Below are positions 2,923 through 37,442 of a stretch of 64,000 nt of DNA, piece after piece. Where the stretch lies: assembly GCA_019322375.1 (NCBI GenBank), contig JAHWIP010000003.1, positions 6,792 to 70,791 of the forward strand, given 5' to 3'. Both the position numbers and the translations under genes were made by a program. The DNA is from Candidatus Woesearchaeota archaeon. Lineage in GTDB: Archaea > Nanobdellota > Nanobdellia > Woesearchaeales > SM23-78. A model generated the notes under the pieces. The model had not been told where the DNA came from and did no database searches. It was given only the letters and a program-made list of their open reading frames with translations. Within the stretch, counting starts at the first letter, position 1, and every line of letters starts with the position of its first letter.

Positions 2923-3018
2923 ATGAATCGTACTTTGATTGAGATTATTGGCCTGGTGATAGCTGTGATTGCTATTGGCTTTGCTATTTACAAGGTTATC
3001 CAGGTGCTGGGTGGTTGA
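2923..3018 (+). CDS. 31-aa helix-only micro-protein (pilin-like N-terminal helix with no globular domain)
   Basis: ATG 2923 to TGA 3016-3018 gives MNRTLIEIIGLVIAVIAIGFAIYKVIQVLGG. The stop abuts the ATG of the next gene (tgaATG at 3016-3021). Below the ORF-track size cutoff. Confidence 0.4.
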   Translation: MNRTLIEIIGLVIAVIAIGFAIYKVIQVLGG

Positions 3019-3441
3019 ATGGAAACTGTTGAAATCATTGTGTTCATAGTATTTGCTTTTATGGTTGGCTTTTTAATACTGGGTGTTGTTACTGGCTGGG
3101 ATTTTGGAAAGTATAATGAGGGCTTGAAAAAAGTCTTTTCAGGTGGAGAAGGCGGGGATTTTAAGAAAACCAGTAAAGAAGAATTTGCAGCAGAGGTTTA
3201 TTCTTTTTTTCAGGAATGCAAGGATAAAGGAACCAATATATCCACTTCGTTTTATTTAAAAGAAGAAGGCTCTTTTTCAAAGCAGGAATTATTCCAGGTG
3301 TACAAGGGTTTTGGCTGGTGCAAGTCAATCCAGTCCTTGGAGAATGAGTGCGGCCAGAGAGAGGATGTGACTATGCAGGACCTCCAGCTGCCCAGAGTTG
3401 TGCGTCTGGAATGCAGAGACGAGCACTTAACCATATCTTAG
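3019..3441 (+). CDS. Small N-terminally anchored (pseudopilin-like) protein, paralog family member 1
   Basis: The hydrophobic helix starts right after Met (METVEIIVFIVFAFMVGFLILGVV). Four Cys. C-terminus RLECRDEHLTIS. Similar size and layout to 3481 and 3902. Confidence 0.6.
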   Translation: METVEIIVFIVFAFMVGFLILGVVTGWDFGKYNEGLKKVFSGGEGGDFKKTSKEEFAAEVYSFFQECKDKGTNISTSFYLKEEGSFSKQELFQVYKGFGWCKSIQSLENECGQREDVTMQDLQLPRVVRLECRDEHLTIS

Positions 3442-3480
3442 TCCATATTGGAATGAAATGTAGAGAGGAATTAAGATAAA

Positions 3481-3891
3481 ATGCAGGTAGCAGAAATTAT
3501 GATTTATGTGATAGTAGCCATTCTTGTCGGCTCTTTAATACTCCTGGCTATGAGGATTGATTATTCAAAGCAGCATTCTGGTTATCAAGAAGCTTTTGCT
3601 AATGAAGAAAAGCCTGTTTTTAAAGTAGAGTCAAAGGATTTTCCTTTGGAAGTTGCTAAGAGATGGGAGGAGTGCGGCTTGGGCACCATGAACAAGTCTT
3701 CTTCTGTTTATGTTCATGATGATGCTCTTATTAATGAGAGTTTTGTGATTACAGAACTAAAAAGGCTTGATAAATGCGATATTATTGATTGTTATAATAC
3801 AGAAAACAGATTTATACTCACAAACTTTCCTATAACCACACCAAAAATTATAAATATCCGTTGTTTTAATAATACTTTAATAATAGGATAG
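3481..3891 (+). CDS. Small N-terminally anchored (pseudopilin-like) protein, paralog family member 2
   Basis: MQVAEIMIYVIVAILVGSLILLAM helix. Motif EVAKRWEECG parallels EVYSFFQECK in 3019. Ends INIRCFNNTLIIG. Confidence 0.6.
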   Translation: MQVAEIMIYVIVAILVGSLILLAMRIDYSKQHSGYQEAFANEEKPVFKVESKDFPLEVAKRWEECGLGTMNKSSSVYVHDDALINESFVITELKRLDKCDIIDCYNTENRFILTNFPITTPKIINIRCFNNTLIIG

Positions 3892-3901
3892 GAACTTTCA
3901 A

Positions 3902-4327
3902 ATGGAACTACCAATAAGAATAATGATAATATTGTTTGTTGCAATTGTTGTAGGTGTGATGATAATAGCTTTTTCAAGAAATATCCTGGAAAGGTCCAAG
4001 GAAAAATTGGACAATCCTCCTGGCTTGGATTTATCAGATGCTGAGGAGCAAAAGATTGTTGAATTAAACAATCTGGATAATTCGCAGTTAATAGAGATGG
4101 TAAGGGCTTGTTATGAGATGCATCATGCAAAGACTTTTAACAGAGAGCTCTGCTTTGTGGTGATAGCCAGCACTTCTTCATGGACCCAGGGTGGTGTGCA
4201 AGGCTATTTTCAGCAGCCAGACAACCTGATTAGTGCCAGTATTGAGTTTGTAGGAAACCCGGATTATGCATTAAAAATATACTATGAAGCCTCTCCTGAT
4301 ATTGAGCAAATCGAGATTTCAAGATAA
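3902..4327 (+). CDS. Small N-terminally anchored (pseudopilin-like) protein, paralog family member 3
   Basis: MELPIRIMIILFVAIVVGVMIIAF helix. 141 aa, same size class as its neighbours. Confidence 0.55.
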   Translation: MELPIRIMIILFVAIVVGVMIIAFSRNILERSKEKLDNPPGLDLSDAEEQKIVELNNLDNSQLIEMVRACYEMHHAKTFNRELCFVVIASTSSWTQGGVQGYFQQPDNLISASIEFVGNPDYALKIYYEASPDIEQIEISR

Positions 4328-4440
4328 ATAATAGATAAAAATATATAAAAAACAGATAAAAATAACAAACTATATTAATAAGGATTATAATAAACTAATA
4401 ATATATAAGAATAATACATAATAAAAGAAGAGGTGATAAA

Positions 4441-5037
4441 ATGACATTAAAGGTTTCTAGAGGAAAAAAAGGCACAGACAAGCCAATTGAAATCTTTATT
4501 GCTTTATTCGTAATACTGGCAGTGGCAATGGTGCTGTTAAAGATGTTCTCCAGCCAGATAGAGTCTAAGAAGAGAGAAATGGAGGAACAACAGCTACAAG
4601 AGGCTGCAAGAGCAGCCATGGAAGACCTTAACACGTTCTGTGATTCTCAGTGCACGCATGCACACCGTTCATTAAAGGACAAAGTAACTTTTTGCACAAG
4701 CTACTATCGAGAGCACGTTGATATAAATAAAAACAATGTTGTTGATTACACAATGGCATTGGATAATATATACGGCTATTGCGAGGATAGGATTTACTGC
4801 GCTGTTTACAGGCCCTGCAGCAATCTTAACATGGAAAATTGCATTGAAATTCTATGTGATTATTTGGGTGTCAATGCTAATTTAAGAGTCTTTGACATAC
4901 AATACGGCCTTATACTGCCAGGAGATTGTTATGACGCAATAAGAACCTCTGCTGACCAGGATGACATTTTTAAAAAGGCAAATCACTGGTATACAAGCTT
5001 GCTGTCTTCATTTGGCGATCCACCAACCTGCCCTTAA
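4441..5037 (+). CDS. Pilin-like Cys-rich secreted protein
   Basis: GAGGTGA motif lies just upstream of the ATG. Leader MTLKVSRGKKGTDKP is followed by IEIFIALFVILAVAMVLL. Ten Cys in the ectodomain (hand count). Confidence 0.6.
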   Translation: MTLKVSRGKKGTDKPIEIFIALFVILAVAMVLLKMFSSQIESKKREMEEQQLQEAARAAMEDLNTFCDSQCTHAHRSLKDKVTFCTSYYREHVDINKNNVVDYTMALDNIYGYCEDRIYCAVYRPCSNLNMENCIEILCDYLGVNANLRVFDIQYGLILPGDCYDAIRTSADQDDIFKKANHWYTSLLSSFGDPPTCP

Positions 5038-5086
5038 TCATTATAATAAAGCAAGAAAAAAGCTATCTGTAGGAGCATGACTCAAG

Positions 5087-5515
5087 ATGGACCAGGCAGT
5101 TTGGGCAGTTTTTGGTATTATAGCAGTTCTTATTGGAATCGGGATTTTATTAAATGTGCTTGGAGAGAACAAGGATGAATCAAAGTATATTCTTTTTAAA
5201 CAATCCTTAGACTCACTAAAGAACCAGTGCGATTTTGTGTGCAACTCGCCTGCAGAAACTTATTTATCAATAATGGTTGAGCTGCCTTCTGGCATGCGCC
5301 TCTACACAGACCAGAACAGGATTTGCGCTCATCTGAATATTTATAAAAAATAATCTGATGAAACCAAGTGCGTGTTATGCAGTTGCCAGGTTGTAGTAAA
5401 AAACAATGAACTCAATCTCCAAACCCCGGCTGCTCTGAAAGCTTTTTCTTCTCATAAATATTCTTGCTTTTTTGAAAGAAAAGAAAATGAGATTGAAATC
5501 GAATGTAAGGGCTGA
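5087..5515 (+). pseudogene. Pilin-like paralog interrupted by an in-frame TAA at 5351-5353 (pseudogene, readthrough or sequence error)
   Basis: The track ORF 5087-5353 (88 aa) is shorter than its 136-141-aa paralogs. The same frame continues after TAA for 53 more codons (SDETKCVLCSCQVVVKNNELNLQTPAALKAFSSHKYSCFFERKENEIEIECKG) to TGA 5513-5515. That restores a 142-residue product whose C-terminus resembles the paralog ending RLECRDE. Confidence 0.5.
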
Positions 5516-6119
5516 TATCCTTGCTAATACTGTTTTATGGTTTGGAATCCTTATAGCAGCCATGATTTGCATGGCATGGCTAGTCAAGAATCTTCGCTCG
5601 CCTTATCTTCCAACAAAAGAACTGGATAATGAGCTTGACCAGTTGCAGCTGGATTTAAACAAGGCCTGCACAATGGATTATTTTTGGAAAAGATACTATC
5701 CCAAGGTTAACAAGGGCAAGCTGATATTCAATGACTTCCAGGTGTGCATGAATGCAGGAGAATGCAAAGTGCTTTTTTTTAAGCCAACCATGCCCAATGC
5801 ATCAGGGCACTTACTTGAAGGAAAAGATATCCTTCTGCCCAATGCAACAGAATGCGAGAATATTGAGCTTTGCCAAGCACTTTTTTTTACATCAGACAAT
5901 GAACCCCCTCTTATTGATTATATTGATGATGCTCAGGGCAGCAGGATAAGGATTAATAATGCTAATGTTTGTGAGCTTAAACCAAAACCAATAACAAGAT
6001 GCAGGCTGCTTACATGTTCATTAAATATAACAGAACATTTTTCCCTGGATAAAATTGTTTACCTTAACATAACAAGAGATAAAAGTGGTGTTTTCAGTGT
6101 TCAGCCAAAAGAATCCTAA
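5487..6119 (+). CDS. Pilin-like Cys-containing secreted protein
   Basis: The track starts at TTG 5472. ATG 5487 gives MRLKSNVRADILANTVLWFGILIAAMICMAWL, a basic leader plus a hydrophobic helix. Confidence 0.55.
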   Translation: MRLKSNVRADILANTVLWFGILIAAMICMAWLVKNLRSPYLPTKELDNELDQLQLDLNKACTMDYFWKRYYPKVNKGKLIFNDFQVCMNAGECKVLFFKPTMPNASGHLLEGKDILLPNATECENIELCQALFFTSDNEPPLIDYIDDAQGSRIRINNANVCELKPKPITRCRLLTCSLNITEHFSLDKIVYLNITRDKSGVFSVQPKES

Positions 6120-6147
6120 GCAGAATAAGTCTGGAAAGAAAAAGCCT

Positions 6148-6597
6148 ATGCAAAAAAAATCCAGGCAAAACAAGGGCATATATTCCTTAGCCACTTCCTT
6201 CTTATTTATTATCATATTAATATTTGTGGTCATAGCTGTGGTTTTCTTTTTTAACCTGTTAAAAGCCAAGAGAATGCAGGCAAGTGATGAGCTAGTAAAA
6301 TATGTGCATATAAGGGATGCTAAGAACAAGATTCTTTCATCTGAGTGCTATACGCATATTATAGAAGAAGCAGATGCTGAGCAGGAGTGCTTTCTGCCTG
6401 AAGGCTTTATCAAGGGATATGTTATTGAGATGCTGGTTTATCCTAACTGCACAACCCAGCACAAGACATGGGAGCATATGCTTGTTGAAGATGAAGCAGG
6501 GGCTGGTGAAGAAGGAGAAATTTATCCTTACTTTGTGCCTGTTCAAGCCAATACCACAGGCAATATTTGCCCTGGAAAACTAAAGGTGATATATTAA
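6148..6597 (+). CDS. Pilin-like secreted protein
   Basis: Internal ATG 6148 gives MQKKSRQNKG-IYSLATSFLFIIILIFVVIAVVFFF. The track start 6085 overlaps the previous gene. Confidence 0.5.
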   Translation: MQKKSRQNKGIYSLATSFLFIIILIFVVIAVVFFFNLLKAKRMQASDELVKYVHIRDAKNKILSSECYTHIIEEADAEQECFLPEGFIKGYVIEMLVYPNCTTQHKTWEHMLVEDEAGAGEEGEIYPYFVPVQANTTGNICPGKLKVIY

Positions 6598-6628
6598 AAG
6601 ACAGTATATTAAAAGGTGGTTCACTAAA

Positions 6629-8074
6629 ATGGGAGTTGTTGACAATATAATGGGAGCGGTTCTTGTTGTCCTTATACTATTGATTGCTGGCATTATTTAT
6701 CTGTCCCTTTTTGCACGCGAAGCATCACAGGATATTAGTGTGACCAGCACTGCTTTTTTTAATGGTATAAACACAAATAATTTTAACACTGTTCTTAAAA
6801 TAACAGAGGAGAATTCCCAAAAATCTTTGGGTGTTTTAATTTCAGAAATAACTTATTACAGGTCTTTGCCTGCGCAGTCAGATGACGGACCTAATGTAAC
6901 AGGGACTTTAAAGGATTTGCTGGATACTGCTTTTTCCACTAATGATTATTATTTCAAAGCAGAACCAGAACTAACACAGATTAGTCTGAACTTTGTTTTT
7001 GACGGCACACCCAGCTCTATGCTTAAGAGAAATGTATTAGCAAACAATCTGGTGAATATAATAGACTTTACCCAGGAAAAAATGGATAATAAAAGCAGAA
7101 GCGAGGGGCGTATTCCAAAAAACTCGGTTACAGCAGATGTATACATCATGGGTCCAAGAGGTGACAAATGCAATATCTTTGATGATTTAAACAGGGTTGA
7201 TATAAACTGCCATGGCATTCGCAGCAATGAGATATATTTAAGCGAGGACATGATGCAAGGACTTTTTGTGCCTGGTTTTCTGCTTGACTATGAAATGTAT
7301 CCTCCTTTTGGTTTTGAATGGATTGAGGAGGATGCTAACAGAGAAGACTCATACGTGGCTAATGAAGAAGATTATTATCAAGCTGACTGGGGTTTTGGAA
7401 CAGCTTATGTATCGCATAAACTAAGCAGTGCAGCTTATAGGAATCGTTTAAACCTTATTTTTCCTGTGAGTGATGAACTATCCACCAGCTCTATACCTGA
7501 TGATTGTTTTTACAAGACATTTATTCCTGACTGGGTTGTGTGCGCTCTTTGCGAGGATGAATGCCCTGTTGAAAGAGCTAACATATCCATTAGCAAGGCA
7601 ATAGAAGTGGCAACAGATTATAATCATGTGCTCATACCTGTTTATGGTTATGGAGGTGATTATGAAATAACCCATCCCCAGATTTATGATTGGAATGGCC
7701 TTGCAGGCACTTCAAGATATGTTGATGGTTTTGGAAGCCCTGGAAATACCTGGTGTGATGCTTCTGGGTGTGGTGGTTGTTCAGAACAACAAGGAGGCAT
7801 ATGCTTTCATCCTGATTGTGCAAGCATTCTGCAGGAGCACATGAACAGAATGGCTGATGAAACCAATGGAATATTCATTGACCTGACTGCTAGCCAGCAG
7901 GAATTTGCAGACACCATCTTTTCAACAATAAGCAATATCATGGACCAGTTCACAATAGAGATTGGGGTGAAAAATGAGAGCAGGGAAAGGGATGTGGTGG
8001 AAGTGAAACAGCCCCTGCCAGATGGAAATTCTCTTCCCTTGAAGTTATGGGTGTATAAGAATCAAAACATTTAA
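6629..8074 (+). CDS. N-terminally anchored large ectoprotein with a possible vWA-like (MIDAS-like) core
   Basis: MGVVDNIMGAVLVVLILLIAGIIYLSLF helix. A beta-strand-then-DxTxSSM pattern (ISLNFVFDGTPSSM) and later hydrophobic strand motifs (LIFPVSDE, VLIPVYGYGGD) resemble a vWA fold. Weak, by eye. Confidence 0.55.
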   Translation: MGVVDNIMGAVLVVLILLIAGIIYLSLFAREASQDISVTSTAFFNGINTNNFNTVLKITEENSQKSLGVLISEITYYRSLPAQSDDGPNVTGTLKDLLDTAFSTNDYYFKAEPELTQISLNFVFDGTPSSMLKRNVLANNLVNIIDFTQEKMDNKSRSEGRIPKNSVTADVYIMGPRGDKCNIFDDLNRVDINCHGIRSNEIYLSEDMMQGLFVPGFLLDYEMYPPFGFEWIEEDANREDSYVANEEDYYQADWGFGTAYVSHKLSSAAYRNRLNLIFPVSDELSTSSIPDDCFYKTFIPDWVVCALCEDECPVERANISISKAIEVATDYNHVLIPVYGYGGDYEITHPQIYDWNGLAGTSRYVDGFGSPGNTWCDASGCGGCSEQQGGICFHPDCASILQEHMNRMADETNGIFIDLTASQQEFADTIFSTISNIMDQFTIEIGVKNESRERDVVEVKQPLPDGNSLPLKLWVYKNQNI

Positions 8075-8127
8075 ATCAGAATAAATTAAATATATAGAAA
8101 GAAATAATATATAACGAGGTTGGTACT

Positions 8128-17554: not shown

Positions 17555-17764
17555 TTATCTTTTCTTCTTTCTAAGCATCCTCTCAATCTTGAGCTCTTCT
17601 GCTTCTATCTTTTTTTCCTCAGCAGCAATCTTCAACACAATCCTTTCAAGATTAAGGTCAATTTTGGCAATCCTTCTCTCCATTAAAACCAGAATCCTGA
17701 GGCTGTACACAATTGCTGCCAGTGTGCCAATAATGATTGCAAGTATCACAGTGTCCATTCCCAT
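17555..17764 (-). CDS. Small membrane-anchored coiled-coil protein
   Basis: 69 aa: an N-terminal hydrophobic helix followed by a charged heptad-like tail. Confidence 0.4.
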   Translation of the reverse strand: MGMDTVILAIIIGTLAAIVYSLRILVLMERRIAKIDLNLERIVLKIAAEEKKIEAEELKIERMLRKKKR

Positions 17765-25319: not shown

Positions 25320-25329
25320 AAACTTTTAT

Positions 25330-26279: not shown

Positions 26280-26359
26280 AAAAACCTAAGAACAAGGCGC
26301 CATATTTAAATTTTACTATTATGAAGTAATAAATTAATTTGTTATTGAATACAACGTAT

Positions 26360-27526: not shown

Positions 27527-27568
27527 GGTAAAAAAGAGAAAATCTGATGTTTATAAAAAGTTTGTTTA

Positions 27569-28780: not shown

Positions 28781-28820
28781 ATTACATATTTATTTTCTTT
28801 TTTTAAATTATTTTCTATTA

Positions 28821-29609: not shown

Positions 29610-29623
29610 CTCTTTTTTTATGG

Positions 29624-30079: not shown

Positions 30080-30545
30080 GCTGGCTCACGATTTTGTTTA
30101 TATTATCCACAAAAACCTTGGTTTCAAAAATATATTTTTTTACCAGGTTAATATCAATGGTTTTTAAGCTGTAGCTAGGAGAGCAGATAACAAACTTGTC
30201 TTTTCTTGCGAATTCAACAGGGCTTTTTTTATGCTCAGAGATTATTGTTCTTACATCATTTATCAGCTTGGCATGGCTTGGGCTGAGCTTGTACCTGGGC
30301 ACCATCTTGCTCTTAAAAATATCAAACCTGGAAGGGAAGGTATCATGATAAGGAGGAATCCTCTTAAACAGTCTTTCATGCTGCAATAAAGCACTCATGC
30401 CAAAATCAAGGCTTGCAAATATATTTTCAATAATAGCCAGCAATAACTTAGGGTCTTTTACCAGGGGATAAGTCATAAAAAGCATGTGGTCAGCTACTTT
30501 TATCTTTTGTAGAGCCTTATCTCTCAGAATCTGGAATTCTTCCAT
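30051..30545 (-). CDS. Hypothetical helical protein (paralog of 29624-30079)
   Basis: See 29624-30079. It is first in the apparent operon with the MinD-like gene. Confidence 0.45.
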   Translation of the reverse strand: MEEFQILRDKALQKIKVADHMLFMTYPLVKDPKLLLAIIENIFASLDFGMSALLQHERLFKRIPPYHDTFPSRFDIFKSKMVPRYKLSPSHAKLINDVRTIISEHKKSPVEFARKDKFVICSPSYSLKTIDINLVKKYIFETKVFVDNINKIVSQHERIFTRSP

Positions 30546-30634
30546 GCTAATTCATTTCACCCTCAAGAATATTAAGCACAGAAAGTATATAAATCTTTGT
30601 GTTGGGAAGTATTTCTTTGTGTTAAGAACTAGTT

Positions 30635-30976
30635 TTACTCCTTCTTCAACTTTAAAATAGCTTCTGCAAGGTCTCCTTTGCATTCCTCAATAGCAGCTTT
30701 AGCATCCTTTTCAGAAGCATCTGTCTGCTCCATCACAGTTTTGACATCATCATCACTAATATCAGGTGTAGAATCAAGTTCTCTGATCTCTTCTTCACCA
30801 ACAACCTGGTAAGTCTGTTGCCCCATCATGTTAACCTTGGACACACTAGGGTTAGAAATAACAATCTCTTTGTCCTCAAGCTTAATAATAACTTCTTTAG
30901 CATCTATTTCCTGCTGCTGAATACCCATACGTTTCATGGCCTGCTTCATTTGTCTAGGATTCATACCCGGGATCAT
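30635..30976 (-). CDS. nac: Nascent polypeptide-associated complex protein (archaeal NAC alpha)
   Basis: MIPGMNPRQMKQAMKRMGIQQQEIDAKEVIIKL start and a C-terminal UBA-like AAIEECKGDLAEAILKL. Confidence 0.85.
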   Translation of the reverse strand: MIPGMNPRQMKQAMKRMGIQQQEIDAKEVIIKLEDKEIVISNPSVSKVNMMGQQTYQVVGEEEIRELDSTPDISDDDVKTVMEQTDASEKDAKAAIEECKGDLAEAILKLKKE

Positions 30977-30992
30977 TTAAACACCTCTTAAT

Positions 30993-31160
30993 CTAAAAGC
31001 CTCCACCTTGAAGATGAAGAATAATAACAATAATAACAACAAGAATTACAAGAACAATTACATGCTCTGGCTTGAACTCAATCTTAGACTTATAATCATC
31101 AAAATACCTGGTAATACCTGCTCCTGAGCTAGGCATCTGAATCTTGTCTTGTTTTCCCAT
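30993..31160 (-). CDS. secG: Preprotein translocase subunit Sec61-beta (archaeal SecG), 55 aa, missed by the ORF track
   Basis: MGKQDKIQMPSSGAGITRYFDDYKSKIEFKPEHVIVLVILVVIIVIILHLQGGGF. The SGAGI.RYFDD motif plus a single C-terminal TM is diagnostic. Confidence 0.75.
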   Translation of the reverse strand: MGKQDKIQMPSSGAGITRYFDDYKSKIEFKPEHVIVLVILVVIIVIILHLQGGGF

Positions 31161-31195
31161 AGTTTTAAGGAGTTAAAAGGTGTTTAAAAAGGTTA

Positions 31196-31633
31196 TTATT
31201 TAAACAGATGTTCTTTTATTTTTTCAATCCTTTTTTGGTTGCATTCTATTATTTCTAATTCACACATATTTATGAATTCATTTATGGTTTCAAGGTTTGG
31301 AGGCTTTGGCTTTTTTAGATAGTACTGTGTGTTAATTCTGTTTTCTTTTAAGCCTTCAAGGAAATCTGTGAATCTTTTGAGTCTTTCATAGTGTTGTGTT
31401 AGAAGAATACTGCATGAATGTATTTCGCTTTTGATCCCATACCTAATGAGTAAAGCAGATAACGCATTGTAGCATGCATAATAAGAGATTATTACCTTCC
31501 AAATAGGATTTTGTCTTTCTATGTTTTCCTGGTCTAATTTTGCTCTTTTAAGGTATGAATCTGAAAGGTTTTTGTTTGGATGAATTAGTTTTATTCCTTT
31601 TGGTTGTTTTAAGCACCATTTTAATTGTTCCAT
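31196..31633 (-). CDS. HEPN-domain protein (partner of the upstream nucleotidyltransferase)
   Basis: 145 aa, helical. YYACYNALSALLIRYGIKSEIHS pattern. 13-nt overlap with the MNT gene. Confidence 0.6.
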   Translation of the reverse strand: MEQLKWCLKQPKGIKLIHPNKNLSDSYLKRAKLDQENIERQNPIWKVIISYYACYNALSALLIRYGIKSEIHSCSILLTQHYERLKRFTDFLEGLKENRINTQYYLKKPKPPNLETINEFINMCELEIIECNQKRIEKIKEHLFK

Positions 31634-32199
31634 TCCAGCACCATTTTTGCGAATTCATTATAATTACCAAACAAGACATGGTTTTTTATTACCTCAACTG
31701 CTAATGTATTCTTGTTTTTATAGAGTTTCCTGAATTCGTTTAAGGTGATGAAATGAGCATGTGCTTTATTAATCTTGCCAAGAATTTTTCGTATTTTTTG
31801 ACTTTTTTTCGCAAAAATTACTAAATCCAAGTCTGAATCTTTTATATTGGTTTTTAAGGCGTGACTCCCGAATATTACAAAATCTGCTTCTTTATGAAGT
31901 TCAGTTAAGATTGGTTTTAATAAAGGGTTTTTCTCTAGGAATTCCAGAGCTCTGTATGTTTCTGTCATTGTAAGGACAAATTCTGTGTTAAGGTTCTTTT
32001 TTAGGAAGTATTGTTTTATTTTTCCTTTAATTTCATAATCAAGAATGTTGTTTTCAACCAGCCCGCTTAGTTCTTTGCTGATTATTTTAATATCTGTCTT
32101 TGTAATCCTTTCTAGTTCTCTCATATAAGCTTCTTTTTTTTCTTTTTCAATAAGAGCCTGCATTATTTTAAAAATATTATTGTTGAATTTATTCATCAT
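31621..32199 (-). CDS. Minimal nucleotidyltransferase (MNT) with an N-terminal wHTH-like region
   Basis: DFVIFGSHALKTNIKDSDLDLVIF matches the GS...D.D nucleotidyltransferase motif. Confidence 0.65.
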   Translation of the reverse strand: MMNKFNNNIFKIMQALIEKEKKEAYMRELERITKTDIKIISKELSGLVENNILDYEIKGKIKQYFLKKNLNTEFVLTMTETYRALEFLEKNPLLKPILTELHKEADFVIFGSHALKTNIKDSDLDLVIFAKKSQKIRKILGKINKAHAHFITLNEFRKLYKNKNTLAVEVIKNHVLFGNYNEFAKMVLEWNN

Positions 32200-32266
32200 A
32201 TGTTGAAATAATTCAACAAAGTTTATAAATTTTGCTGAAAATTGATGCGTAATTTAGAAAACTTAA

Positions 32267-32626
32267 GGTAGAGCAGTTATAAGCCGCCTTTTGTCAGCCT
32301 CCACGTCTTGCATGGGCAGGCTGTGCTTAACATTCTACTAAGCGTCTCAAAGGACTTGCACCAGTGAGGACTCGCCGTTTCACCCATTCCCATGGCTTAA
32401 AGCGGTCGGGTTGTTAACTCGCGCCCTGTTGCCAGAGTGCTTCATTACCCTCATTCCTATCCATAGGTGGTCTCGTTTCTGAGCCGTTGCCCTGGCTTTC
32501 ACCAGCTAGCTTCCACTAGTCACTTTTCATGGTGGGCGGACTTTCCTAAGCAGAACAAGTCAAAACCGCGCCTTTGAAAGCGCAGGAAATGATAGGTCCT
32601 ACCTGCTGTTAAGCCACTGCCCTACC
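32267..32626 (-). ncRNA. rnpB: RNase P RNA, archaeal type A
   Basis: On the minus strand: P1 pairing GGTAGGGCAGT (5') with ACTGCTCTACC (3'). CR-I GGAAAGTCCGCCC, GGGTGAAACGGCG, and CR-V ACAAAAGGCGGCTTATA. A G+C-rich island with no ORF. Confidence 0.85.
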
Positions 32627-32754
32627 TGTGCATAAGAGGGTTTTAAGGGTTTAAAAAGCTTATCTTTTTTCGCCTCTATAGTAACATTTAAATACTAATA
32701 ATTTCAAGGATAAGAGATAGGATTTAATACTTAAAAAAATAGAGGTGATTATCC

Positions 32755-33042
32755 ATGGATAAAAAAGCCCAGGGTCTGAGTATGAATGTTATTATAATAG
32801 CAGCAATAGCTCTTTTAGTGCTTATCATTCTTGCTGTTCTTATCCTGAGAGCAGGTAAAGGAGTGACTGAAGGTACAGGGTGCAGAGGTGTTGGAGGAAT
32901 TTGTTATTCTAGCTGCACAGACTTGATTGAGGACAGAGGCGGAATGTGGGTTAAGAATCTTCCTAACAGCGGAAAGAATGGTGGCTGTTCAATAGACCAG
33001 GTTTGCTGTGTTGAACTATTAGAAACACCTGAGGATTACTAA
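32755..33042 (+). CDS. Type IV pilin-like protein with a six-Cys module (paralog A)
   Basis: GAGGTGA lies 6 nt upstream. MDKKAQG-LSMNVIIIAAIALLVLIILAVLIL. Module CRGVGGICYSSC...GGCSIDQVCCVE. Confidence 0.7.
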   Translation: MDKKAQGLSMNVIIIAAIALLVLIILAVLILRAGKGVTEGTGCRGVGGICYSSCTDLIEDRGGMWVKNLPNSGKNGGCSIDQVCCVELLETPEDY

Positions 33043-33044
33043 AA

Positions 33045-33335
33045 ATGAAGTTCTTGAATAATAAGAAAGGAGTCCAGCTAACCCTTTCTACAGTGGTTAT
33101 TGCAGTGCTTGTAATCATTGTGCTCATAGTGTTGATAGTGATTTTTACCCAGGGAACAGGCTTGTTCAACATAGGAATAACCAGCTGCGCTGATAGGGGA
33201 GGTAATTGTAATTACGAATCAGCAGATCAATGCGTTGATACTGGCGGCAGTGTTTACAGGTTTGGCAAGTGCACCGACGGGGTTTGCTGTATTCCTAAGG
33301 ACAAGCTTTCAGGGCAAGATGATAATCAAGACTAA
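33045..33335 (+). CDS. Type IV pilin-like protein with a six-Cys module (paralog B)
   Basis: MKFLNNKKG-VQLTLSTVVIAVLVIIVLIVLIV. Module SCADRGGNCNYESADQC...GKCTDGVCCIP. Confidence 0.7.
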   Translation: MKFLNNKKGVQLTLSTVVIAVLVIIVLIVLIVIFTQGTGLFNIGITSCADRGGNCNYESADQCVDTGGSVYRFGKCTDGVCCIPKDKLSGQDDNQD

Positions 33336-35157
33336 TAAGAAGAGGGCTGAGCTCACTATAACCCAAGTAGTACTCATGGTTCTGGGTGTAGTTGTTCTTA
33401 TTGTGCTGCTTTTTGTTTTGAAAATAATACCCACAGGAATTAGAAGTCTTACGAGCTGCTCTGACTGGGGGCAGTGCAGGCCAGGAAATGTTTGCGCACC
33501 AAATGAATACATAAAATTTGAAGCAAAGGATGACTGTCCTGCAAACCATGTGTGCTGCGTGCCTACAACCACAAGGCCAGGACCTCTTCAGGATTTTAAT
33601 GAAAAAGAGCTTGAATACCTGAGAAATGCTATTATCATAAAGCTTAACAATGACCCTACGCCTATAAGCGATGTAGCAAGCCTTAACTTAAAAGTTGATA
33701 CTAATTATACATTTCGTATAAGTATTAATGATAAGCTCACCAAGGATAAAAAAACAAGTGAAAAGCTTGGCCCTTGCGCTGTTTATGTGGTTGACACAAG
33801 AGAAGCAGGCAAGAAATATTTATTAACAAATAAAGGCTGGGACTTGATTCTTTCTGACAAAGAGATTGATTTGAGCGGCATAGAGCTGGCTGAGTGCACT
33901 GAAGAAAGCATTAGGTTAAAAAAATATTCTCCTTCACTAAATGATGTTTACAAGGACTTGGTGCTGTATGTTATTCTTTTGGATAAGGAAGTTGTTGATG
34001 CACTTGAAGTATTAGAAACACACGACCCTGGCTTTGTTAAACTAACTGCTCCTGGGTTTGGCAGTGGAATTAATCTCCCTGATAGGGGGATGGCAGCTTT
34101 TTATAATCTCACAACAATGTACAGCAATGTTGACCACTGGCTTGCTTACAGAGCCATAAGACTTAATGTTGAGCCAGTAGTCCAGATTAGTGGTATGAGC
34201 GGAATATGGGTTGACAAGGACCCAATAACCATATCCTGCCCTGATGTTACCTGCATCAGGTTTGGCTTAAAACTAGTGAAACTAAAAGACAATGATTATT
34301 TACAGTTGGTAGAAGAGTGCAAGAAGCCAGAAGGCTTTAAGTACACTCTTGATTATGTTGCAGGAACAACAACAAAAACAACAGGCATACCATTGAACAT
34401 TAATATTGGAGGTTTCAGGATTCCTCCTCAAAGACAAAAACTCCAGTACATTGTAAGCCAAAAACCAATAACTGTTGTTAATAATAAAGCAGATGTTTTG
34501 ATTGACAGGGCTACCATGCTAAAAACCTTTTACTCAGGAGACCACGAGTTATTAATCGAGGACACTACTTATCTTTGCGTAGAAGCCACCAAGGATGACG
34601 GCTCAAAGGTTCATGGGCTCTCAGAGCAGCCTATTAAAGTGGATGTTTTTCCGCCCATGGTTGACCCTGACAAGGATGTGCAGTTATTTTATCCAGACCC
34701 AGTGATCTCATCAGACATATCAACCCCTTATTATTACAGGAAGTACCCTAAGATTGTTGTTTCTGGATGCTATGATTATGGCCAGAGCGGATGCACTAAT
34801 TATGATTACTATATTCATTCAGGAGAATTTGTTAATCTAAGGTCTCTGACAGCAGAGTGGGAGATAGGAATTGCTTCTTTGATACTAACAGAGGGCTTGA
34901 ATGCCCTGCTCACTTATTTTGCAGAAAAAGATGCTGTCAACACTATATGCCCGTTTATAACCAGCCATTCTTACACAAGAAACACCCGCAATGAGATAAG
35001 AATCCCAAGGCAAGGGCAGGGCATAATATGCATCAGGGTTAGTGACAAAGTAGGCAACAAAGACATTATCTGGAAGGTGCTCTGGACACCTGAAGAGATG
35101 TTCAAGAAAATTATTGCAGAAGGAGTGGCAGAGGCAGAAGAAGCAGTGACTGGATAG
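33319..35157 (+). CDS. Large pilin-like protein: class III-type N-terminus, six-Cys module, ~530-aa unassigned ectodomain
   Basis: The track start 33235 lies inside the previous gene. ATG 33319 gives MIIKTNKKRA-ELTITQVVLMVLGVVVLIVLLFVL, then SCSDWGQCRPGNVC...DCPANHVCCVP. Confidence 0.65.
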   Translation: MIIKTNKKRAELTITQVVLMVLGVVVLIVLLFVLKIIPTGIRSLTSCSDWGQCRPGNVCAPNEYIKFEAKDDCPANHVCCVPTTTRPGPLQDFNEKELEYLRNAIIIKLNNDPTPISDVASLNLKVDTNYTFRISINDKLTKDKKTSEKLGPCAVYVVDTREAGKKYLLTNKGWDLILSDKEIDLSGIELAECTEESIRLKKYSPSLNDVYKDLVLYVILLDKEVVDALEVLETHDPGFVKLTAPGFGSGINLPDRGMAAFYNLTTMYSNVDHWLAYRAIRLNVEPVVQISGMSGIWVDKDPITISCPDVTCIRFGLKLVKLKDNDYLQLVEECKKPEGFKYTLDYVAGTTTKTTGIPLNINIGGFRIPPQRQKLQYIVSQKPITVVNNKADVLIDRATMLKTFYSGDHELLIEDTTYLCVEATKDDGSKVHGLSEQPIKVDVFPPMVDPDKDVQLFYPDPVISSDISTPYYYRKYPKIVVSGCYDYGQSGCTNYDYYIHSGEFVNLRSLTAEWEIGIASLILTEGLNALLTYFAEKDAVNTICPFITSHSYTRNTRNEIRIPRQGQGIICIRVSDKVGNKDIIWKVLWTPEEMFKKIIAEGVAEAEEAVTG

Positions 35158-35229
35158 CAAGTTAACTTAACATCTCCCTTCTTAATAAAACCGAAAGTTT
35201 ATTATAATTCTGTTATGATAGATTAGGAT

Positions 35230-35334
35230 ATGAAAAAAGGAGATTTGTCAACACTGGCAACTGTTATAATTATATTATTAACTCTTGTGTTTATAATCTT
35301 TATTTTCGGAAGAATCTATGGGTGGTGGGGTTGA
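35230..35334 (+). CDS. 34-aa helix-only micro-pilin-like ORF
   Basis: MKKG-DLSTLATVIIILLTLVFIIFIFGRIYGWWG. Ends 5 nt before the ATG of the next pilin-like gene. Below the track cutoff. Confidence 0.45.
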   Translation: MKKGDLSTLATVIIILLTLVFIIFIFGRIYGWWG

Positions 35335-35339
35335 AAAGG

Positions 35340-36299
35340 ATGAGCAGGATTAATAAAAAAGCAGGATTAAGCACATTACAAACAATTATCATTATCCTGC
35401 TCATATTTGTTGTTCTATTAATCTTTTACCAGGACTTAAGAGCAACTCTGTTAAAAAAATCTAACAGAGAGATATGCAGGGCTACTGCTCTTGCCCAGTC
35501 TGTTGCTGTGTGGGCGCCTGAAGGAGAGAATTTGGTTAGTCTTGAATGCAAGACTTACAAGGTTGTGTTTTTTGAAGACCATGTTGAGATTAATGATGAA
35601 ATAATTGAGGTGTATGACCCCAGGAAAAAAGATGTTGTTAAAAAGTTTAATGGCTTAACAGAGGACATTGTTAACTGGGTGATTGCAGAGGAGCTCAGAT
35701 GGTGCTGGTGGCAGTTTCTTGAAGGAAAAAAAAGCTTGTTAAACATGAAGAACTTTTTTGGCTCAGCAGAAAGAACCTGTTTTTTATGCACTGAAATAAC
35801 TTTTGATGAATCAGTTAAGACTGATGAATTCAAAAACTTCTTTAAGTACACCAAGGAAAAAACAATGCCTAATTCTGAAATGACTTATTACCAGTACTAT
35901 GCTGAGGAGCCCAGGAAGTGCATCTGGAGGTATGAAGAGATTATTGATGCAGATAATTGCTGGGAAGCCTATGCACAGGGCATCTCGCCTAATATAATAA
36001 CCAGCACTGTACAGCATTTTAAAGAGGCATTTAGCCATTGCTCAGGCATAATACCTGCTCTTTCAACTTACTGGTCTTCTGTAACGCATTATAGTGTTGT
36101 TAAAAACATAACCTTTGAGAAAGATAAAAAGTATGCTGTGACTTTTGTAAGGGAAGGAGCAACCTCAAGGCATCTTGAGCTAGAAAAATTAGTAAAAGGA
36201 GAGACTGATTGTTTTTTTGAAACTTATTTTTCATATGTAATCCCTTCTGATGAACTAGGAAAGCACTGCGGCCCTGTGAGAAGAGGCTCTATGAAATAA
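35340..36299 (+). CDS. Pilin-like Cys-containing protein (paralog of 36301-37197)
   Basis: ATG 35340 gives MSRINKKAG-LSTLQTIIIILLIFVVLLIF. Shared blocks with its neighbour: IAEELRWCWWQF/IADSLKTCWGTW, TCFLCTEITFDE/YCHVCSVIDFDD, KYAVTFV/PYAVMFV. Confidence 0.65.
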   Translation: MSRINKKAGLSTLQTIIIILLIFVVLLIFYQDLRATLLKKSNREICRATALAQSVAVWAPEGENLVSLECKTYKVVFFEDHVEINDEIIEVYDPRKKDVVKKFNGLTEDIVNWVIAEELRWCWWQFLEGKKSLLNMKNFFGSAERTCFLCTEITFDESVKTDEFKNFFKYTKEKTMPNSEMTYYQYYAEEPRKCIWRYEEIIDADNCWEAYAQGISPNIITSTVQHFKEAFSHCSGIIPALSTYWSSVTHYSVVKNITFEKDKKYAVTFVREGATSRHLELEKLVKGETDCFFETYFSYVIPSDELGKHCGPVRRGSMK

Positions 36300-36300
36300 A

Positions 36301-37197
36301 ATGAACAAGAAAGCCATTGTGTTTGACAAACTCATGACAGCTGTTCTGATAATCATTGTGCTGGCTGTTTTTATTTTTTTCCTGGTAAAGATAAAAATCC
36401 ATGCCTTAAAAATTGTTGAGGATTCTGAGTGCAAAGCAAGCATTATCAGCCATGCAACTCTTTTAAGGGTGACTGGAGAAGACACAACACCAGACATTCA
36501 CTGCCCTACCAAATATTATACTCTTCCAAAAGAAAGCAATGAAGAAATAAAGCATTATATTGCTGATTCATTAAAGACCTGCTGGGGAACCTGGGGCAAA
36601 GGAGAGCTTCAGTTATTTAACCAGCAAGGCTATTACTGCCATGTGTGCTCTGTGATTGATTTTGATGATAAAACAAAAAAAATACAAGGCCTGAACAATT
36701 ACCTGATTAATACGCCAACAGATAAAGATACCCCTCTCACATACATGGACTACCTCACAGGTTATGCATCTGAAAAAGCAGACCCTGCATTAATACAAGA
36801 GGTTCAGGAAAAAGGTTTTTCAGACACCATACACACTTCAAAGCCTTATGCAGTCATGTTTGTTTATGCCAAAGGAAAAACAGGTGTTAAAGCATTTCTT
36901 GATGGCATGGATGCTCTTGGCCTGGGAACAACAGGAGGAGGAATCACTACAGGGCTTGCACTGGGCTCAGCAGCAGGCATAGGGCTGGCAGCAGCAGGAG
37001 TGGCAAGTGGTGGAGCAGCAATTGTTATAGCAGGAGCAGTCACAGCTGCTGGCGGAGTGATAGGCTATATAACAGCAGATGATACTCACTGGATAGCCCT
37101 TACATTGTTCACAGAATACAATGCTGAAACCCTGAAAAGCATTGGGTGCGAGATAGCCCCTGCAAAGCAGGACAGAAAAACTGATGAAACTGGTTAA
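36301..37197 (+). CDS. Pilin-like protein with a Gly/Ala-rich hydrophobic C-terminal segment
   Basis: MNKKA-IVFDKLMTAVLIIIVLAVFIFFLV. C-terminal GLGTTGGGITTGLALGSAAGIGLAAAGVASGGAAIVIAGAVTAAGGVIGYI is glycine-zipper-like. Confidence 0.65.
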   Translation: MNKKAIVFDKLMTAVLIIIVLAVFIFFLVKIKIHALKIVEDSECKASIISHATLLRVTGEDTTPDIHCPTKYYTLPKESNEEIKHYIADSLKTCWGTWGKGELQLFNQQGYYCHVCSVIDFDDKTKKIQGLNNYLINTPTDKDTPLTYMDYLTGYASEKADPALIQEVQEKGFSDTIHTSKPYAVMFVYAKGKTGVKAFLDGMDALGLGTTGGGITTGLALGSAAGIGLAAAGVASGGAAIVIAGAVTAAGGVIGYITADDTHWIALTLFTEYNAETLKSIGCEIAPAKQDRKTDETG

Positions 37198-37280
37198 AAA
37201 ACTTAATTTGGTGATTTAGTTAAAGCGAAAGCATTAAAAAACACAAAAGCATAAAAAATCTTGAAACAAGAGGTTTTAAC

Positions 37281-37442
37281 ATGAGTTATGGCATGAACCG
37301 TATGAACAAGAAAGCCCAGGAAACAATGAGTCCTGAAGGCGGCACACTAAGAATAATATGGTTTGTGATTGTCTTATTAGTACTTATTATTATTGTTTAT
37401 TTTGTTGCAACAAATTTTAAACTAATCAAACTGCCATTTTGA
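37281..37442 (+). CDS. 53-aa helix-only micro-pilin-like ORF
   Basis: MSYGMNRMNKKA-QETMSPEGGTLRIIWFVIVLLVLIIIVYFVATNFKLIKLPF. Ends 9 nt before the amidase gene. Below the track cutoff. Confidence 0.4.
   Translation: MSYGMNRMNKKAQETMSPEGGTLRIIWFVIVLLVLIIIVYFVATNFKLIKLPF

What the first reader, a model, noticed from the sequence alone, without database searches (positions are those of the whole stretch)
2923..37442. Three helix-only micro-ORFs (31, 34 and 53 aa) tucked immediately upstream of larger pilin-like genes
These ORFs are not in the ORF track. 2923-3018: MNRTLIEIIGLVIAVIAIGFAIYKVIQVLGG. 35230-35334: MKKGDLSTLATVIIILLTLVFIIFIFGRIYGWWG. 37281-37442: MSYGMNRMNKKAQETMSPEGGTLRIIWFVIVLLVLIIIVYFVATNFKLIKLPF. 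Each is essentially a pilin-type leader plus one TM helix with no globular domain. Each ends 0-9 nt before the start of the next pilin-like gene, and the first gives a tgaATG junction. Seeing the same arrangement three times argues against chance ORFs. Possible roles (inference) are minimal pilins, assembly primers, or membrane chaperones or regulators for the downstream protein.
Basis: seen in the sequence. Interest (0 to 1): 0.5.

Follow-up and report, generated by a model that had tools for sequence, protein, structure and literature searches.

The report
Conserved one-helix micro-genes beside pilus genes
Three tiny genes (31, 34 and 53 codons), each coding for little more than one membrane-spanning helix, are real and conserved in many DPANN archaea; each heads an operon in a pilus-type gene cluster and two were never annotated, but what they do in the membrane is still inferred.

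Summary
All three ORFs exist exactly as described. They are not chance ORFs. The window is from a Candidatus Woesearchaeota (DPANN) archaeon. Each micro-ORF belongs to its own conserved family found at the same position in related genomes: family 1 in 21 species-level genomes, plus 3 with longer forms; family 2 in 14 of 14 loci that reach the position; family 3 in 18 of 18. The frames stay open. Substitutions are three-periodic, with second codon positions most conserved. Each family has its own peptide motifs. ORF1 and ORF2 sit 23 nt behind a TATA box, the geometry of leaderless genes in this window. ORF3 has a GAGGT ribosome-binding site. ORF1 follows a PilC/GspF-type platform gene, which in relatives follows a T2SSE ATPase gene. 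ORF2 and ORF3 flank a conserved Cys-rich gene pair. ORF3 always precedes a membrane-anchored peptidoglycan hydrolase whose catalytic domain differs between lineages. The best reading is headless, pilin-like one-helix membrane peptides that pair with their downstream partner inside a type IV filament system. Processing, topology and incorporation into a filament are untested. Families 2 and 3 carry the KK[G/A] class III-type motif; family 1 does not. These are a new variant of a known kind and of moderate interest.

The parts
2923..3018 (+). Micro-ORF 1, 31 aa (MNRTLIEIIGLVIAVIAIGFAIYKVIQVLGG). Family 1 consensus is MN[RK]T[IL]..II[EG][LV][VI]IA.., 30-41 aa.
   Evidence: Homologues lie at the same position in 21 GTDB loci. 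The frame is open in 22/22 sequences, while the +1 frame has stops in 22/22. Mean pairwise differences per codon position are 0.51/0.33/0.71; window versus L011 gives pS 0.75 and pN 0.16.
2892..2899 (+). TATA-like box GTTATAAA, 23 nt upstream of the ORF1 ATG (leaderless geometry)
   Evidence: In this window, most genes with a strong TATA match (>=7/8) have a 21-25 nt gap. Relatives with their own promoter show TATA boxes at the same place.
26..1891 (+). 621-aa polytopic membrane protein: a PilC/GspF/TadC-type platform protein of a type IV filament system
3019..3441 (+). Partner of ORF1: 140-aa N-terminally anchored protein (METVEI...), first of three paralogues (3481-3891, 3902-4327)
   Evidence: It co-occurs with the short form of family 1 in all 21 loci plus the window. 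The median gap from stop to start is 1 nt.
4441..5037 (+). 198-aa protein with a canonical KKG|TDKPIEIFIALFVILAVAMV start: candidate major pilin of cluster 1
   Evidence: Its N-terminus is almost invariant across loci. Weak ComGE minor-pilin N-terminal match, E 8.5e-4, below the cutoff.
35191..35208 (+). BRE/TATA element CCGAAAGTTTATTATAAT, ending 21 nt upstream of the ORF2 ATG (its TATA octamer ends 23 nt upstream)
   Evidence: Unique in the window. Nearly invariant in most of the 12 close loci that carry family 2 (three or four show several changes), always about 22-26 nt before the ATG.
35230..35334 (+). Micro-ORF 2, 34 aa (MKKGDLSTLATVIIILLTLVFIIFIFGRIYGWWG). Family 2 is MKKA.(L/F)(S/N).. 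- helix - (Y/W)(R/K)(R/K)(I/V)F(G/F).
   Evidence: Present in 14/14 loci that reach the position. Codon-position differences are 0.55/0.37/0.68, with pS 0.78 and pN 0.46.
35340..36299 (+). Partner of ORF2: 319-aa Cys-rich protein with a NKKAG-LSTL start, paralogue of the next gene
36301..37197 (+). 298-aa Cys-rich protein lying between ORF2's partner and ORF3. Its sequence has a C-terminal Gly/Ala-rich hydrophobic stretch.
37225..37240 (+). BRE/TATA element GCGAAAGCATTAAAAA upstream of ORF3
   Evidence: The same element, GCGAAAATATTAAAAAC, is conserved in most family 3 loci.
37270..37274 (+). GAGGT ribosome-binding site, 6 nt before ATG 37281
   Evidence: The same aGAGGTg motif precedes several other genes in the window.
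37281..37442 (+). Micro-ORF 3, 53 aa (alternative homologous start at 37299 gives 47 aa). Family 3 is ..MNKK(A/G) - polar spacer - helix - short tail ending (L/I)..(I/L)F.
   Evidence: Present in 18/18 loci that reach the position. A profile search of 1.84 billion representatives finds only 48-62 aa proteins of the same build.
37452..38285 (+). Partner of ORF3: 277-aa membrane-anchored N-acetylmuramoyl-L-alanine amidase (Amidase_2)
   Evidence: The equivalent gene in other lineages carries Amidase_2, a weak (below-cutoff) Glucosaminidase match, SLT or no recognised domain, behind a similar N-terminal anchor.

Best explanation
The three ORFs are genuine, translated micro-genes of a Woesearchaeota (DPANN) archaeon. 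Each encodes a bitopic peptide that is essentially one transmembrane helix with a few polar residues at each end. Each is the first cistron of a transcription unit inside gene clusters of a type IV filament (pilus-like) system. The steps shown are as follows. The three are separate, conserved families. Each is tied to one particular downstream partner: family 1 to a 140-aa ME.VEI protein right after the PilC-type platform gene, family 2 to a Cys-rich 319-aa protein, and family 3 to a membrane-anchored peptidoglycan hydrolase. The steps inferred are as follows. The micro-protein is made together with its partner through tight translational coupling. In the window, the partner's ribosome-binding site lies in the last codons of the micro-ORF or straddles its stop codon. 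The micro-protein inserts in the membrane. In families 2 and 3 it may be trimmed after KK[G/A] by the class III signal peptidase. Its helix then packs against the N-terminal helix of the partner and/or docks on the platform. In this reading it acts as a headless, alpha1N-only pilin-like subunit: an adaptor, primer or anchor. It is not a surface-forming filament subunit, because a mature peptide of 27-30 residues has nothing hydrophilic to cover a filament.
For: Real genes. Shuffles give at most 0.24%. Syntenic ORFs occur in genomes whose neighbouring proteins are only 40-67% identical. Substitutions are three-periodic and pN is lower than pS in all three families. The family 1 frame is open in 22/22 sequences while the +1 frame is closed in 22/22. 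Stop codons and partner frames vary, so these are separate cistrons and not read-through fusions. Expression signals. The TATA box lies 23 nt before the ORF1 and ORF2 ATGs, as for most strong-TATA genes of this window, including the histone gene (22 nt). Family 2 has a largely invariant promoter element. ORF3 has a GAGGT site. In many relatives family 1 abuts the platform gene, preceded by a GGGGG-type site. Pilus context. There is a T2SSE ATPase and a PilC/GspF-fold platform. Neighbours start with KK[G/A] followed by a hydrophobic stretch. Makarova et al. describe such DPANN loci with unrecognisable pilins (PMC6393860). Pilin-likeness. KK[G/A/S] precedes the helix in 12/14 family 2 and 15/18 family 3 members. 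Glu occurs within residues 5-10 in 12/21 family 1 members. Three loci carry 93-116 aa long forms with the same family 1 N-terminus plus a C-terminal extension. Partner specificity. Family 1 co-occurs with its partner in 21 of 21 loci. The catalytic domain of family 3's partner changes while its N-terminal anchor and the micro-ORF stay.
Against: No experimental evidence of translation, processing, topology or interaction exists. None of the three matches any Pfam or NCBIfam pilin or class III signal model, even at E<=5. Family 1 starts MN[RK]T, which is not a canonical [KR][GA] cleavage site. Both ends of the peptides carry basic residues; family 2 has a conserved C-terminal dibasic motif, and two members lack the N-terminal KK. 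The N-in topology required of a prepilin is therefore not established. In ORF3, 11 polar residues separate KKA from the helix. No class III signal peptidase gene is in the window. Cluster 2 has no ATPase or platform gene within reach. The modelled 298-aa neighbour of the partner genes gave no pilin fold hit.
Confidence: 0.55

Rival explanations
1. They are generic small accessory subunits in the manner of KdpF, CydX or AcrZ in bacteria (own knowledge). Under this reading they are unprocessed one-helix peptides that stay in the membrane and stabilise or regulate the membrane protein encoded next to them. They have no pilin-type processing and no place in a filament.
For: Each is the first cistron and tightly coupled to one partner. 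Charge distribution is ambiguous, and family 2 has a conserved C-terminal aromatic-dibasic motif. There are no pilin-model hits. The partner of ORF3 is an enzyme and not a pilin. The sequence of the 298-aa neighbour has a C-terminal Gly/Ala-rich hydrophobic stretch, which suggests a permanently membrane-embedded protein (the stretch is modelled below pLDDT 50).
Against: Families 2 and 3 share the KK[G/A] start of the neighbouring class III-type proteins. Family 1 sits exactly where pilin genes start, after the ATPase and platform genes. It also has long forms with extra-membrane domains.
Confidence: 0.3
2. They are leader or coupling ORFs. Under this reading their main role is to load ribosomes on a leaderless mRNA and hand them to the downstream gene, or to bring the mRNA to the membrane through SRP, and the peptide itself is dispensable.
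For: The geometry is that of leaderless transcripts. Stops abut or overlap the partner's start (median gap 1 nt). In the window, the partner's ribosome-binding site lies within the last codons of the micro-ORF or straddles its stop codon (GGTGGttgaATG, GGTGGTGGGGttgaaaaggATG, tGAGGTtaagaaATG).
Against: Peptide-level motifs are conserved at both termini, and second codon positions are the most conserved. In many relatives family 1 has no promoter of its own and simply follows the platform gene, so no leader function is needed there. The downstream proteins have their own membrane anchors.
Confidence: 0.07
3. This rival applies to ORF3 only. It is a holin-like or release-controlling partner of the peptidoglycan hydrolase that follows it, as in phage holin-endolysin pairs with signal-anchored endolysins (own knowledge).
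For: A small one-helix protein lies directly upstream of an N-terminally anchored murein hydrolase. The catalytic domain is swapped between lineages (Amidase_2, a weak Glucosaminidase match, SLT) as in lysis cassettes.
Against: The pair sits in a conserved chromosomal cluster of class III-type surface proteins with no phage genes. Archaea of this group are not known to have murein, so the hydrolase needs no hole to reach its substrate (own knowledge; PMC8204110, interprets such enzymes as acting on bacterial walls). The peptide shares its NKK[G/A] start with the neighbouring proteins.
Confidence: 0.05
4. They are chance ORFs, or decayed 5' fragments of duplicated pilin genes.
For: AT-rich, T-rich DNA readily yields short hydrophobic ORFs. 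The N-terminus of ORF2 resembles that of its partner (KKGDLSTLATVIIILL versus KKAGLSTLQTIIIILL).
Against: Shuffle statistics argue against chance. So do the conserved frames, motifs and promoters across dozens of species-level genomes.
Confidence: 0.02

Closest known systems
Tad/Flp (type IVc) pilins, e.g. Caulobacter PilA
   Same: They are helix-only pilins with no globular domain, thought to be of archaeal origin, and are encoded with an ATPase and platform genes (PMC10710030; PMC6668835). Family 3 would give a mature peptide of about 40 residues if cut after KK[G/A], the lower end of the Tad range.
   Different: Tad pilins are 40-60 residues with a hydrophilic C-terminal half that forms the filament surface, and they carry the Flp G/XXXXEY motif. 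Families 1 and 2 would be 27-30 residues with almost no hydrophilic part. None of the three has an EY motif or a hit to an Flp/Fap model.
Geobacter split pilin PilA-N / PilA-C and truncated pilins of Desulfuromonadales
   Same: A short helix-only pilin gene is directly followed by a gene for the rest of the unit (PMC5174107; discussed in PMC10710030).
   Different: PilA-N is about 60 residues and is a full alpha1 helix. Here the downstream partners keep their own N-terminal hydrophobic helix, so this is not a simple head/helix split.
Small archaeal major pilins of the Epd type (about 70 aa, e.g. M. maripaludis MMP1685)
   Same: They are archaeal, have a class III signal and are very small; they are the smallest archaeal pilins listed by Makarova et al. 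2016 (PMC4858521).
   Different: They are usually stand-alone genes and more than twice the size. No sequence relationship was detected.
DPANN type IV pilus loci with 'dark matter' pilins (Makarova, Wolf & Koonin 2019)
   Same: The context is the same: an ATPase, a TadC-like protein and a run of unrecognisable signal-peptide proteins (PMC6393860).
   Different: In the passages I read, that work does not describe micro-genes of about 30 codons. Two of the three here are not even called as genes.
Bacterial small membrane-protein subunits (KdpF, CydX, AcrZ)
   Same: They are under 50 aa, have one helix, are co-operonic with the complex they bind, and are often missed by annotation (own knowledge).
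   Different: They are unrelated in sequence and system. They have no class III-type N-terminus and no pilus context.

Membership tests
Archaeal type IV pilin / class III signal-peptide protein | Short basic leader ending in [KR]-[G/A(/S)] directly before the hydrophobic stretch | tested here: inconclusive
   ORF2 has MKKG then DLSTL plus the helix, which fits. ORF3 has NKKA, but 11 polar residues precede the helix. ORF1 has MNRT, which has no G/A at -1. Family counts are 12/14 (family 2) and 15/18 (family 3) with [KR][KR][GAS]. Family 1 has T/S at residue 4 in 20/21.
Archaeal type IV pilin / class III signal-peptide protein | Cleavage by a PibD/FlaK/EppA-type prepilin peptidase | not testable with these tools
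   No peptidase gene is in the window, and no biochemical data are available.
Archaeal type IV pilin / class III signal-peptide protein | Hydrophobic N-terminal alpha1 helix of about 20 residues | tested here: met
   The best 19-residue Kyte-Doolittle window scores 2.7-3.4 in all three ORFs, and this holds in all homologues.
Archaeal type IV pilin / class III signal-peptide protein | C-terminal globular (head) domain | tested here: not met
   Only 8-11 residues follow the helix. Long forms exist in just 3 family 1 loci.
Archaeal type IV pilin / class III signal-peptide protein | Encoded with a secretion ATPase and a PilC/TadC/FlaJ platform protein | tested here: met
   This is met for ORF1: the platform is at 26-1891 and a T2SSE ATPase lies upstream in L011. 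It is not met locally for ORF2 and ORF3, because cluster 2 has no ATPase or platform gene in the window.
Archaeal type IV pilin / class III signal-peptide protein | Match to curated pilin or class III signal models | tested here: not met
   There are no pilin-family hits in Pfam at E<=5 or NCBIfam at E<=1 for any micro-ORF.
Tad/Flp (type IVc) pilin | Mature length 40-60 residues, helix only | tested here: inconclusive
   ORF3 would give about 41 residues if cut after KKA. ORF1 and ORF2 would give about 27-30 residues, below the range quoted in PMC10710030.
Tad/Flp (type IVc) pilin | Flp motif G/XXXXEY and a match to an Flp/Fap model | tested here: not met
   No EY motif is present in any family alignment, and there is no Flp-family hit.
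Split pilin (PilA-N/PilA-C type) | The downstream gene supplies the head domain for the helix-only chain | tested here: inconclusive
   Adjacency and co-occurrence are met. However, the partners have their own N-terminal helix, and interaction could not be modelled with the tools available.
Holin (ORF3 only) | Small membrane protein next to a murein hydrolase within a phage or lysis cassette | tested here: not met
   Adjacency to a hydrolase is met. The context is a conserved chromosomal surface-protein cluster without phage genes.
Small membrane-protein subunit (KdpF/CydX-like, a functional class) | Under 50 aa, one helix, co-operonic with and bound to a membrane complex | tested here: inconclusive
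   Size, helix and operon position are met. Binding is not testable here.

The most novel reading that the evidence does not exclude
DPANN type IV filament systems use separate, alpha1N-only 'micro-pilins' of about 30-40 residues as detachable pilin helices. Each pairs in the membrane with the plain N-terminal anchor of a non-pilin cargo encoded next to it. One such cargo is a slot for peptidoglycan hydrolases with interchangeable catalytic domains. The pairing lets the platform/ATPase machine load that cargo onto, or push it out with, a filament. This would be a two-chain pilin/effector-display system that small archaea use to attack bacterial cell walls.
Probability: 0.12. Interest if true: 0.8.

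Novelty: new variant of a known kind. Interest (0 to 1): 0.5.

Why it matters
If the reading holds, three things follow. First, the lower size limit of pilin-like proteins drops from 40-60 residues (Tad pilins) to about 30. It would also show that pilus-type machines can have dedicated helix-only partner subunits. Second, it adds three conserved and mostly unannotated protein families to the poorly understood surface apparatus of DPANN archaea, organisms thought to live attached to other cells. Third, family 3 marks a conserved slot for membrane-anchored peptidoglycan hydrolases with swapped catalytic domains. That gives a concrete handle on how Woesearchaeota might engage bacterial hosts. On the practical side, gene callers miss two of the three genes, so these families are absent from protein databases.

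Tried and rejected
A genome-contig scan with the single amidase protein found no relative. The six-sequence alignment of the Cys-rich family was too diverse for a pattern search. It was replaced by an 18-sequence alignment.

Pfam and NCBIfam scans of the micro-ORFs at lenient thresholds gave only noise from other one-helix proteins. A profile search with family 3 against 1.84 billion representatives found only six small proteins. Peptides this short are near the limit of sequence searching.

I considered read-through or recoding fusion of ORF1 with the next gene, because they are in the same frame with a tgaATG junction. I rejected it because homologues use all three stop codons and sit in all three relative frames.

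I considered a structured RNA instead of a coding region. Rfam finds nothing there, and the substitution pattern is that of coding sequence.

I considered an N-glycosylation sequon (N-X-T/S at residues 2-4 of family 1). I did not adopt it because the site would lie within 3 residues of the membrane and is absent from about a third of members.

Topology from the positive-inside rule is ambiguous for all three families.

Full report
OBSERVATION. ORF1 is 2923-3018 (31 aa), ORF2 is 35230-35334 (34 aa) and ORF3 is 37281-37442 (53 aa). ORF1 ends in tgaATG at the start of the 140-aa gene 3019-3441. ORF2 ends 5 nt before ATG 35340. ORF3 ends 9 nt before ATG 37452. After a rough gene map of the window, each micro-ORF is the only sizeable ORF in its intergenic gap and fills the gap up to the next gene. 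In 5000 dinucleotide-preserving shuffles of each gap, an ATG-ORF of at least 30 aa with a transmembrane-grade hydrophobic window appeared anywhere in at most 0.24% of shuffles. It never appeared within 10 nt of the next gene.

ORGANISM AND CONTEXT. The window is archaeal. It carries RadA, tRNA-intron endonuclease, RPA, a histone, Sec61-beta and an archaeal RNase P RNA. The same proteins occur on a 71,427-nt NCBI contig of a Candidatus Woesearchaeota archaeon. Most neighbours of the micro-ORFs have no Pfam domain.

Cluster 2 (32755-46639) is a run of at least 13 genes. Nearly all their products begin with [N/S][K/R]K[G/A] followed by a hydrophobic stretch, which is the look of archaeal class III (prepilin-type) signals. 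The cluster includes an Amidase_2 protein and a 1257-aa Peptidase_M23 protein. This matches the description by Makarova, Wolf and Koonin of DPANN pilus loci whose pilins are unrecognisable 'dark matter' (PMC6393860).

CONSERVATION OF ORF2 AND ORF3. Homologues of the amidase led to fully syntenic contigs L003-L005, with neighbouring proteins about 50% identical. Both positions there hold an uncalled small helix-coding ORF. More distant loci L007 and L008 have only one copy of the Cys-rich gene. There it is flanked by a 42-44 aa ORF upstream and a 39-52 aa ORF downstream, and both are called as genes in L007. A pattern scan of JGI metagenomes with an 18-sequence alignment of the 298-aa family gave 20 more loci. 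Family 2 is present in 14 of 14 loci that reach the position. Family 3 is present in 18 of 18.

CONSERVATION OF ORF1. An alignment of the platform protein retrieved 45 species-level genomes. In 21 of them a 30-41 aa ORF with the consensus MN[RK]T[IL]..II[EG][LV][VI]IA lies between the platform gene and a protein of about 140 aa that starts ME.VEI. Three further loci carry 93-116 aa proteins with the same N-terminus plus a C-terminal extension, and these loci lack the 140-aa partner. The loci are labelled Woesearchaeota, Iainarchaeum, Micrarchaeota, Nanoarchaeota and Nanobdellota.

CODING SIGNATURE. In family 1, mean pairwise differences per codon position are 0.51, 0.33 and 0.71. pS is near saturation (mean 0.77) while pN is lower (mean 0.43; window versus L011 gives 0.75 versus 0.16). 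The reading frame is open in 22 of 22 sequences, whereas the +1 frame has stops in all 22. Families 2 and 3 give 0.55/0.37/0.68 and 0.60/0.45/0.66, with pS 0.78 and 0.75 against pN 0.46 and 0.52. The peptides evolve fast but keep family-specific features. Family 2 keeps MKKA at the start and (Y/W)(R/K)(R/K)(I/V)F(G/F) at the end. Family 3 keeps MNKK(A/G), a polar spacer, the helix and a tail ending (L/I)..(I/L)F. In family 1 the stop codons are TAA 13, TGA 5 and TAG 3, and the partner lies in relative frame 0, 1 or 2 in 10, 8 and 3 loci. The same-frame tgaATG junction of the window is therefore not a read-through fusion.

EXPRESSION SIGNALS. Many genes of this window have a TTTATATA-like box 21-25 nt before the start codon, the geometry of leaderless archaeal mRNAs. 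Among them is the histone gene (22 nt). ORF1 and ORF2 each have such a box 23 nt upstream. For family 2 the element AAAACCGAAAGTTTATTATAATTCT is nearly invariant in most of the 12 close loci, although the adjacent proteins are only 40-64% identical, and it always lies about 22-26 nt before the ATG. It is unique in the window. Family 3 has a conserved GCGAAAATATTAAAAAC element. In the window a GAGGT site sits 6 nt before ATG 37281. Homology suggests that MNKKAQ (ATG 37299) could be the real start, and some first ATGs in other loci lie inside the TATA box, so the N-terminal limit of family 3 is uncertain. In many relatives family 1 has no promoter of its own and abuts the platform gene, preceded by a GGGGG-type site. 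In the window, the ribosome-binding site of each downstream gene lies within the last codons of the micro-ORF or straddles its stop codon. In family 1 the median distance from stop to partner start is 1 nt. These are first or internal cistrons, tightly coupled to the next gene.

ANNOTATION STATUS. ORF3 is MBW2990157.1, 'hypothetical protein KY348_00460'. ORF1 and ORF2 are not in a collection of about 15 billion predicted proteins. Several homologues are in it, all unnamed. No Pfam or NCBIfam family matches any of them. A profile of family 3 finds only six proteins of 48-62 aa with the same build among 1.84 billion representatives.

PARTNERS. Family 1 in its short form and the ME.VEI protein co-occur without exception in 21 loci plus the window. 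Family 2 always precedes the CR.S.LAQ-type Cys-rich protein. Family 3 always precedes a protein with a plain N-terminal anchor, mostly without KK[G/A]. That protein's catalytic domain differs between lineages. It is Amidase_2 in the window, L003, L006, L056 and L070. L058 and L059 give a weak Glucosaminidase match, below the curated cutoff. L073 has SLT, and five others have no recognised domain. The constant parts are the micro-gene and the anchor; the enzyme head is exchangeable.

INTERPRETATION. What is shown: three conserved micro-genes for one-helix membrane peptides, each dedicated to a downstream partner, inside type IV filament-type clusters of DPANN archaea. What is inferred: they act as headless, pilin-like (alpha1N-only) subunits whose helix packs with the partner's N-terminal helix and/or the platform.

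- In favour: the pilus context; the shared KK[G/A] start of families 2 and 3 (12/14 and 15/18); the frequent membrane-embedded Glu near the N-terminus of family 1 (12/21); and the long forms of family 1.
- Against: no pilin-model match; the non-canonical MN[RK]T start of family 1; basic residues at both ends, so that topology is open; and no signal peptidase gene in view.

A mature peptide of 27-30 residues has no hydrophilic surface, so I do not think families 1 and 2 build a filament by themselves. Family 3, at about 40 residues after a putative cut, is at the lower edge of the Tad/Flp range of 40-60 residues (PMC10710030).

The main rival is a generic small accessory subunit of KdpF/CydX type that never leaves the membrane. 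Leader-ORF, holin-like (ORF3 only) and chance explanations are much less likely, for the reasons given under the rivals.

COMPARISON AND NOVELTY. The closest known things are:
- Tad/Flp helix-only pilins.
- The Geobacter PilA-N/PilA-C split pilin.
- The small major pilins of about 70 aa in methanogens (PMC4858521).
- Small bacterial membrane-protein subunits.

Membership in the pilin or Flp families is not established. The head domain is absent, curated models do not match, the Flp motif is absent, and cleavage is untestable here. A recent census of archaeal type IV filament systems (bioRxiv 10.64898/2026.04.22.720090) and the 2016 census do not mention components of this size in the passages I read. 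I rate this as a new variant of a known kind. It is a solid, mostly unannotated set of micro-protein families with a plausible but untested role, and of moderate interest.

Noticed in passing
window 37452-38285; L056 4440-5264, L070 1005-1772, L058 5081-5752, L059 5113-5832, L073 5148-6041: The gene after micro-ORF 3 keeps a similar N-terminal anchor but carries different peptidoglycan-hydrolase domains in different lineages. These are Amidase_2, a weak (below-cutoff) Glucosaminidase match, an SLT lytic transglycosylase, or no recognised domain. It looks like an exchangeable 'effector slot'. A 1257-aa Peptidase_M23 protein (42866-46639) closes the same cluster. Murein hydrolases in Woesearchaeota were reported before (PMC8204110).
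   Followed up: partly
window 48092-50200 (-): A 702-aa protein has bacterial sigma-70 regions 1.2, 2, 3 and 4 in an otherwise archaeal window. This is already reported as common in Woesearchaeota (PMC8204110).
   Followed up: partly
window 35187-35212 and the same element in L054-L073: A 25-nt BRE/TATA element, AAAACCGAAAGTTTATTATAATTCT, is nearly invariant in most of the 12 close loci whose flanking proteins are only 40-64% identical. It is far more conserved than the coding sequence behind it, which suggests a specific regulator or an unusually constrained promoter.
   Followed up: partly
window 32269-32573 (-): Archaeal RNase P RNA (Rfam RF00373, 121 bits) lies in the 555-nt gap just upstream of cluster 2.
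   Followed up: no
window 5087-5353 and 5372-5515 (+): The 88-aa MDQAVW... ORF followed by a 47-aa ORF looks like a disrupted copy of the MEQAVW gene of about 139 aa in L011-L013. This could be a frameshift, a pseudogene or an assembly error. L009 shows a similar split of the gene equivalent to the 198-aa gene.
   Followed up: no
window 17555-17764 (-), 30993-31160 (-), 14765-14983 (-): Other short genes lie below an 80-aa cut-off. One is a 69-aa helix plus coiled-coil protein with a strong GAGGTGGAGGT site. One is Sec61-beta (55 aa; the Pfam hit is on the homologue in L003). One is a 72-aa histone.
   Followed up: no
window 2162-2782 (-): A 206-aa minus-strand gene sits between the platform gene and micro-ORF 1 in the window only. 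In the related loci the micro-ORF follows the platform gene directly or after a short promoter gap.
   Followed up: no
L044 4086-4367, L047 1537-1818, L050 7907-8257: These loci carry long forms (93-116 aa) of family 1, with the same MN[RK][TA] start and helix plus a C-terminal extension, and they lack the 140-aa partner. The relation of the extension to the partner's domain was not tested.
   Followed up: no
L010, L012, L013, L016 (titles 'uncultured Methanosarcinales archaeon'), L024 ('Bdellovibrionales bacterium'), L030 ('Chloroflexi bacterium'): Several GTDB records that carry this DPANN-type platform/pilin locus have organism titles from unrelated lineages. These are probably mislabelled or contaminated bins.
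   Followed up: no
window 35230-35334 versus 35340-35440: The ORF2 peptide and the N-terminus of its partner are unusually alike in the window (KKGDLSTLATVIIILL versus KKAGLSTLQTIIIILL) but use different codons. In other loci the two are much less alike. This could reflect an old partial duplication or a shared constraint.
   Followed up: no
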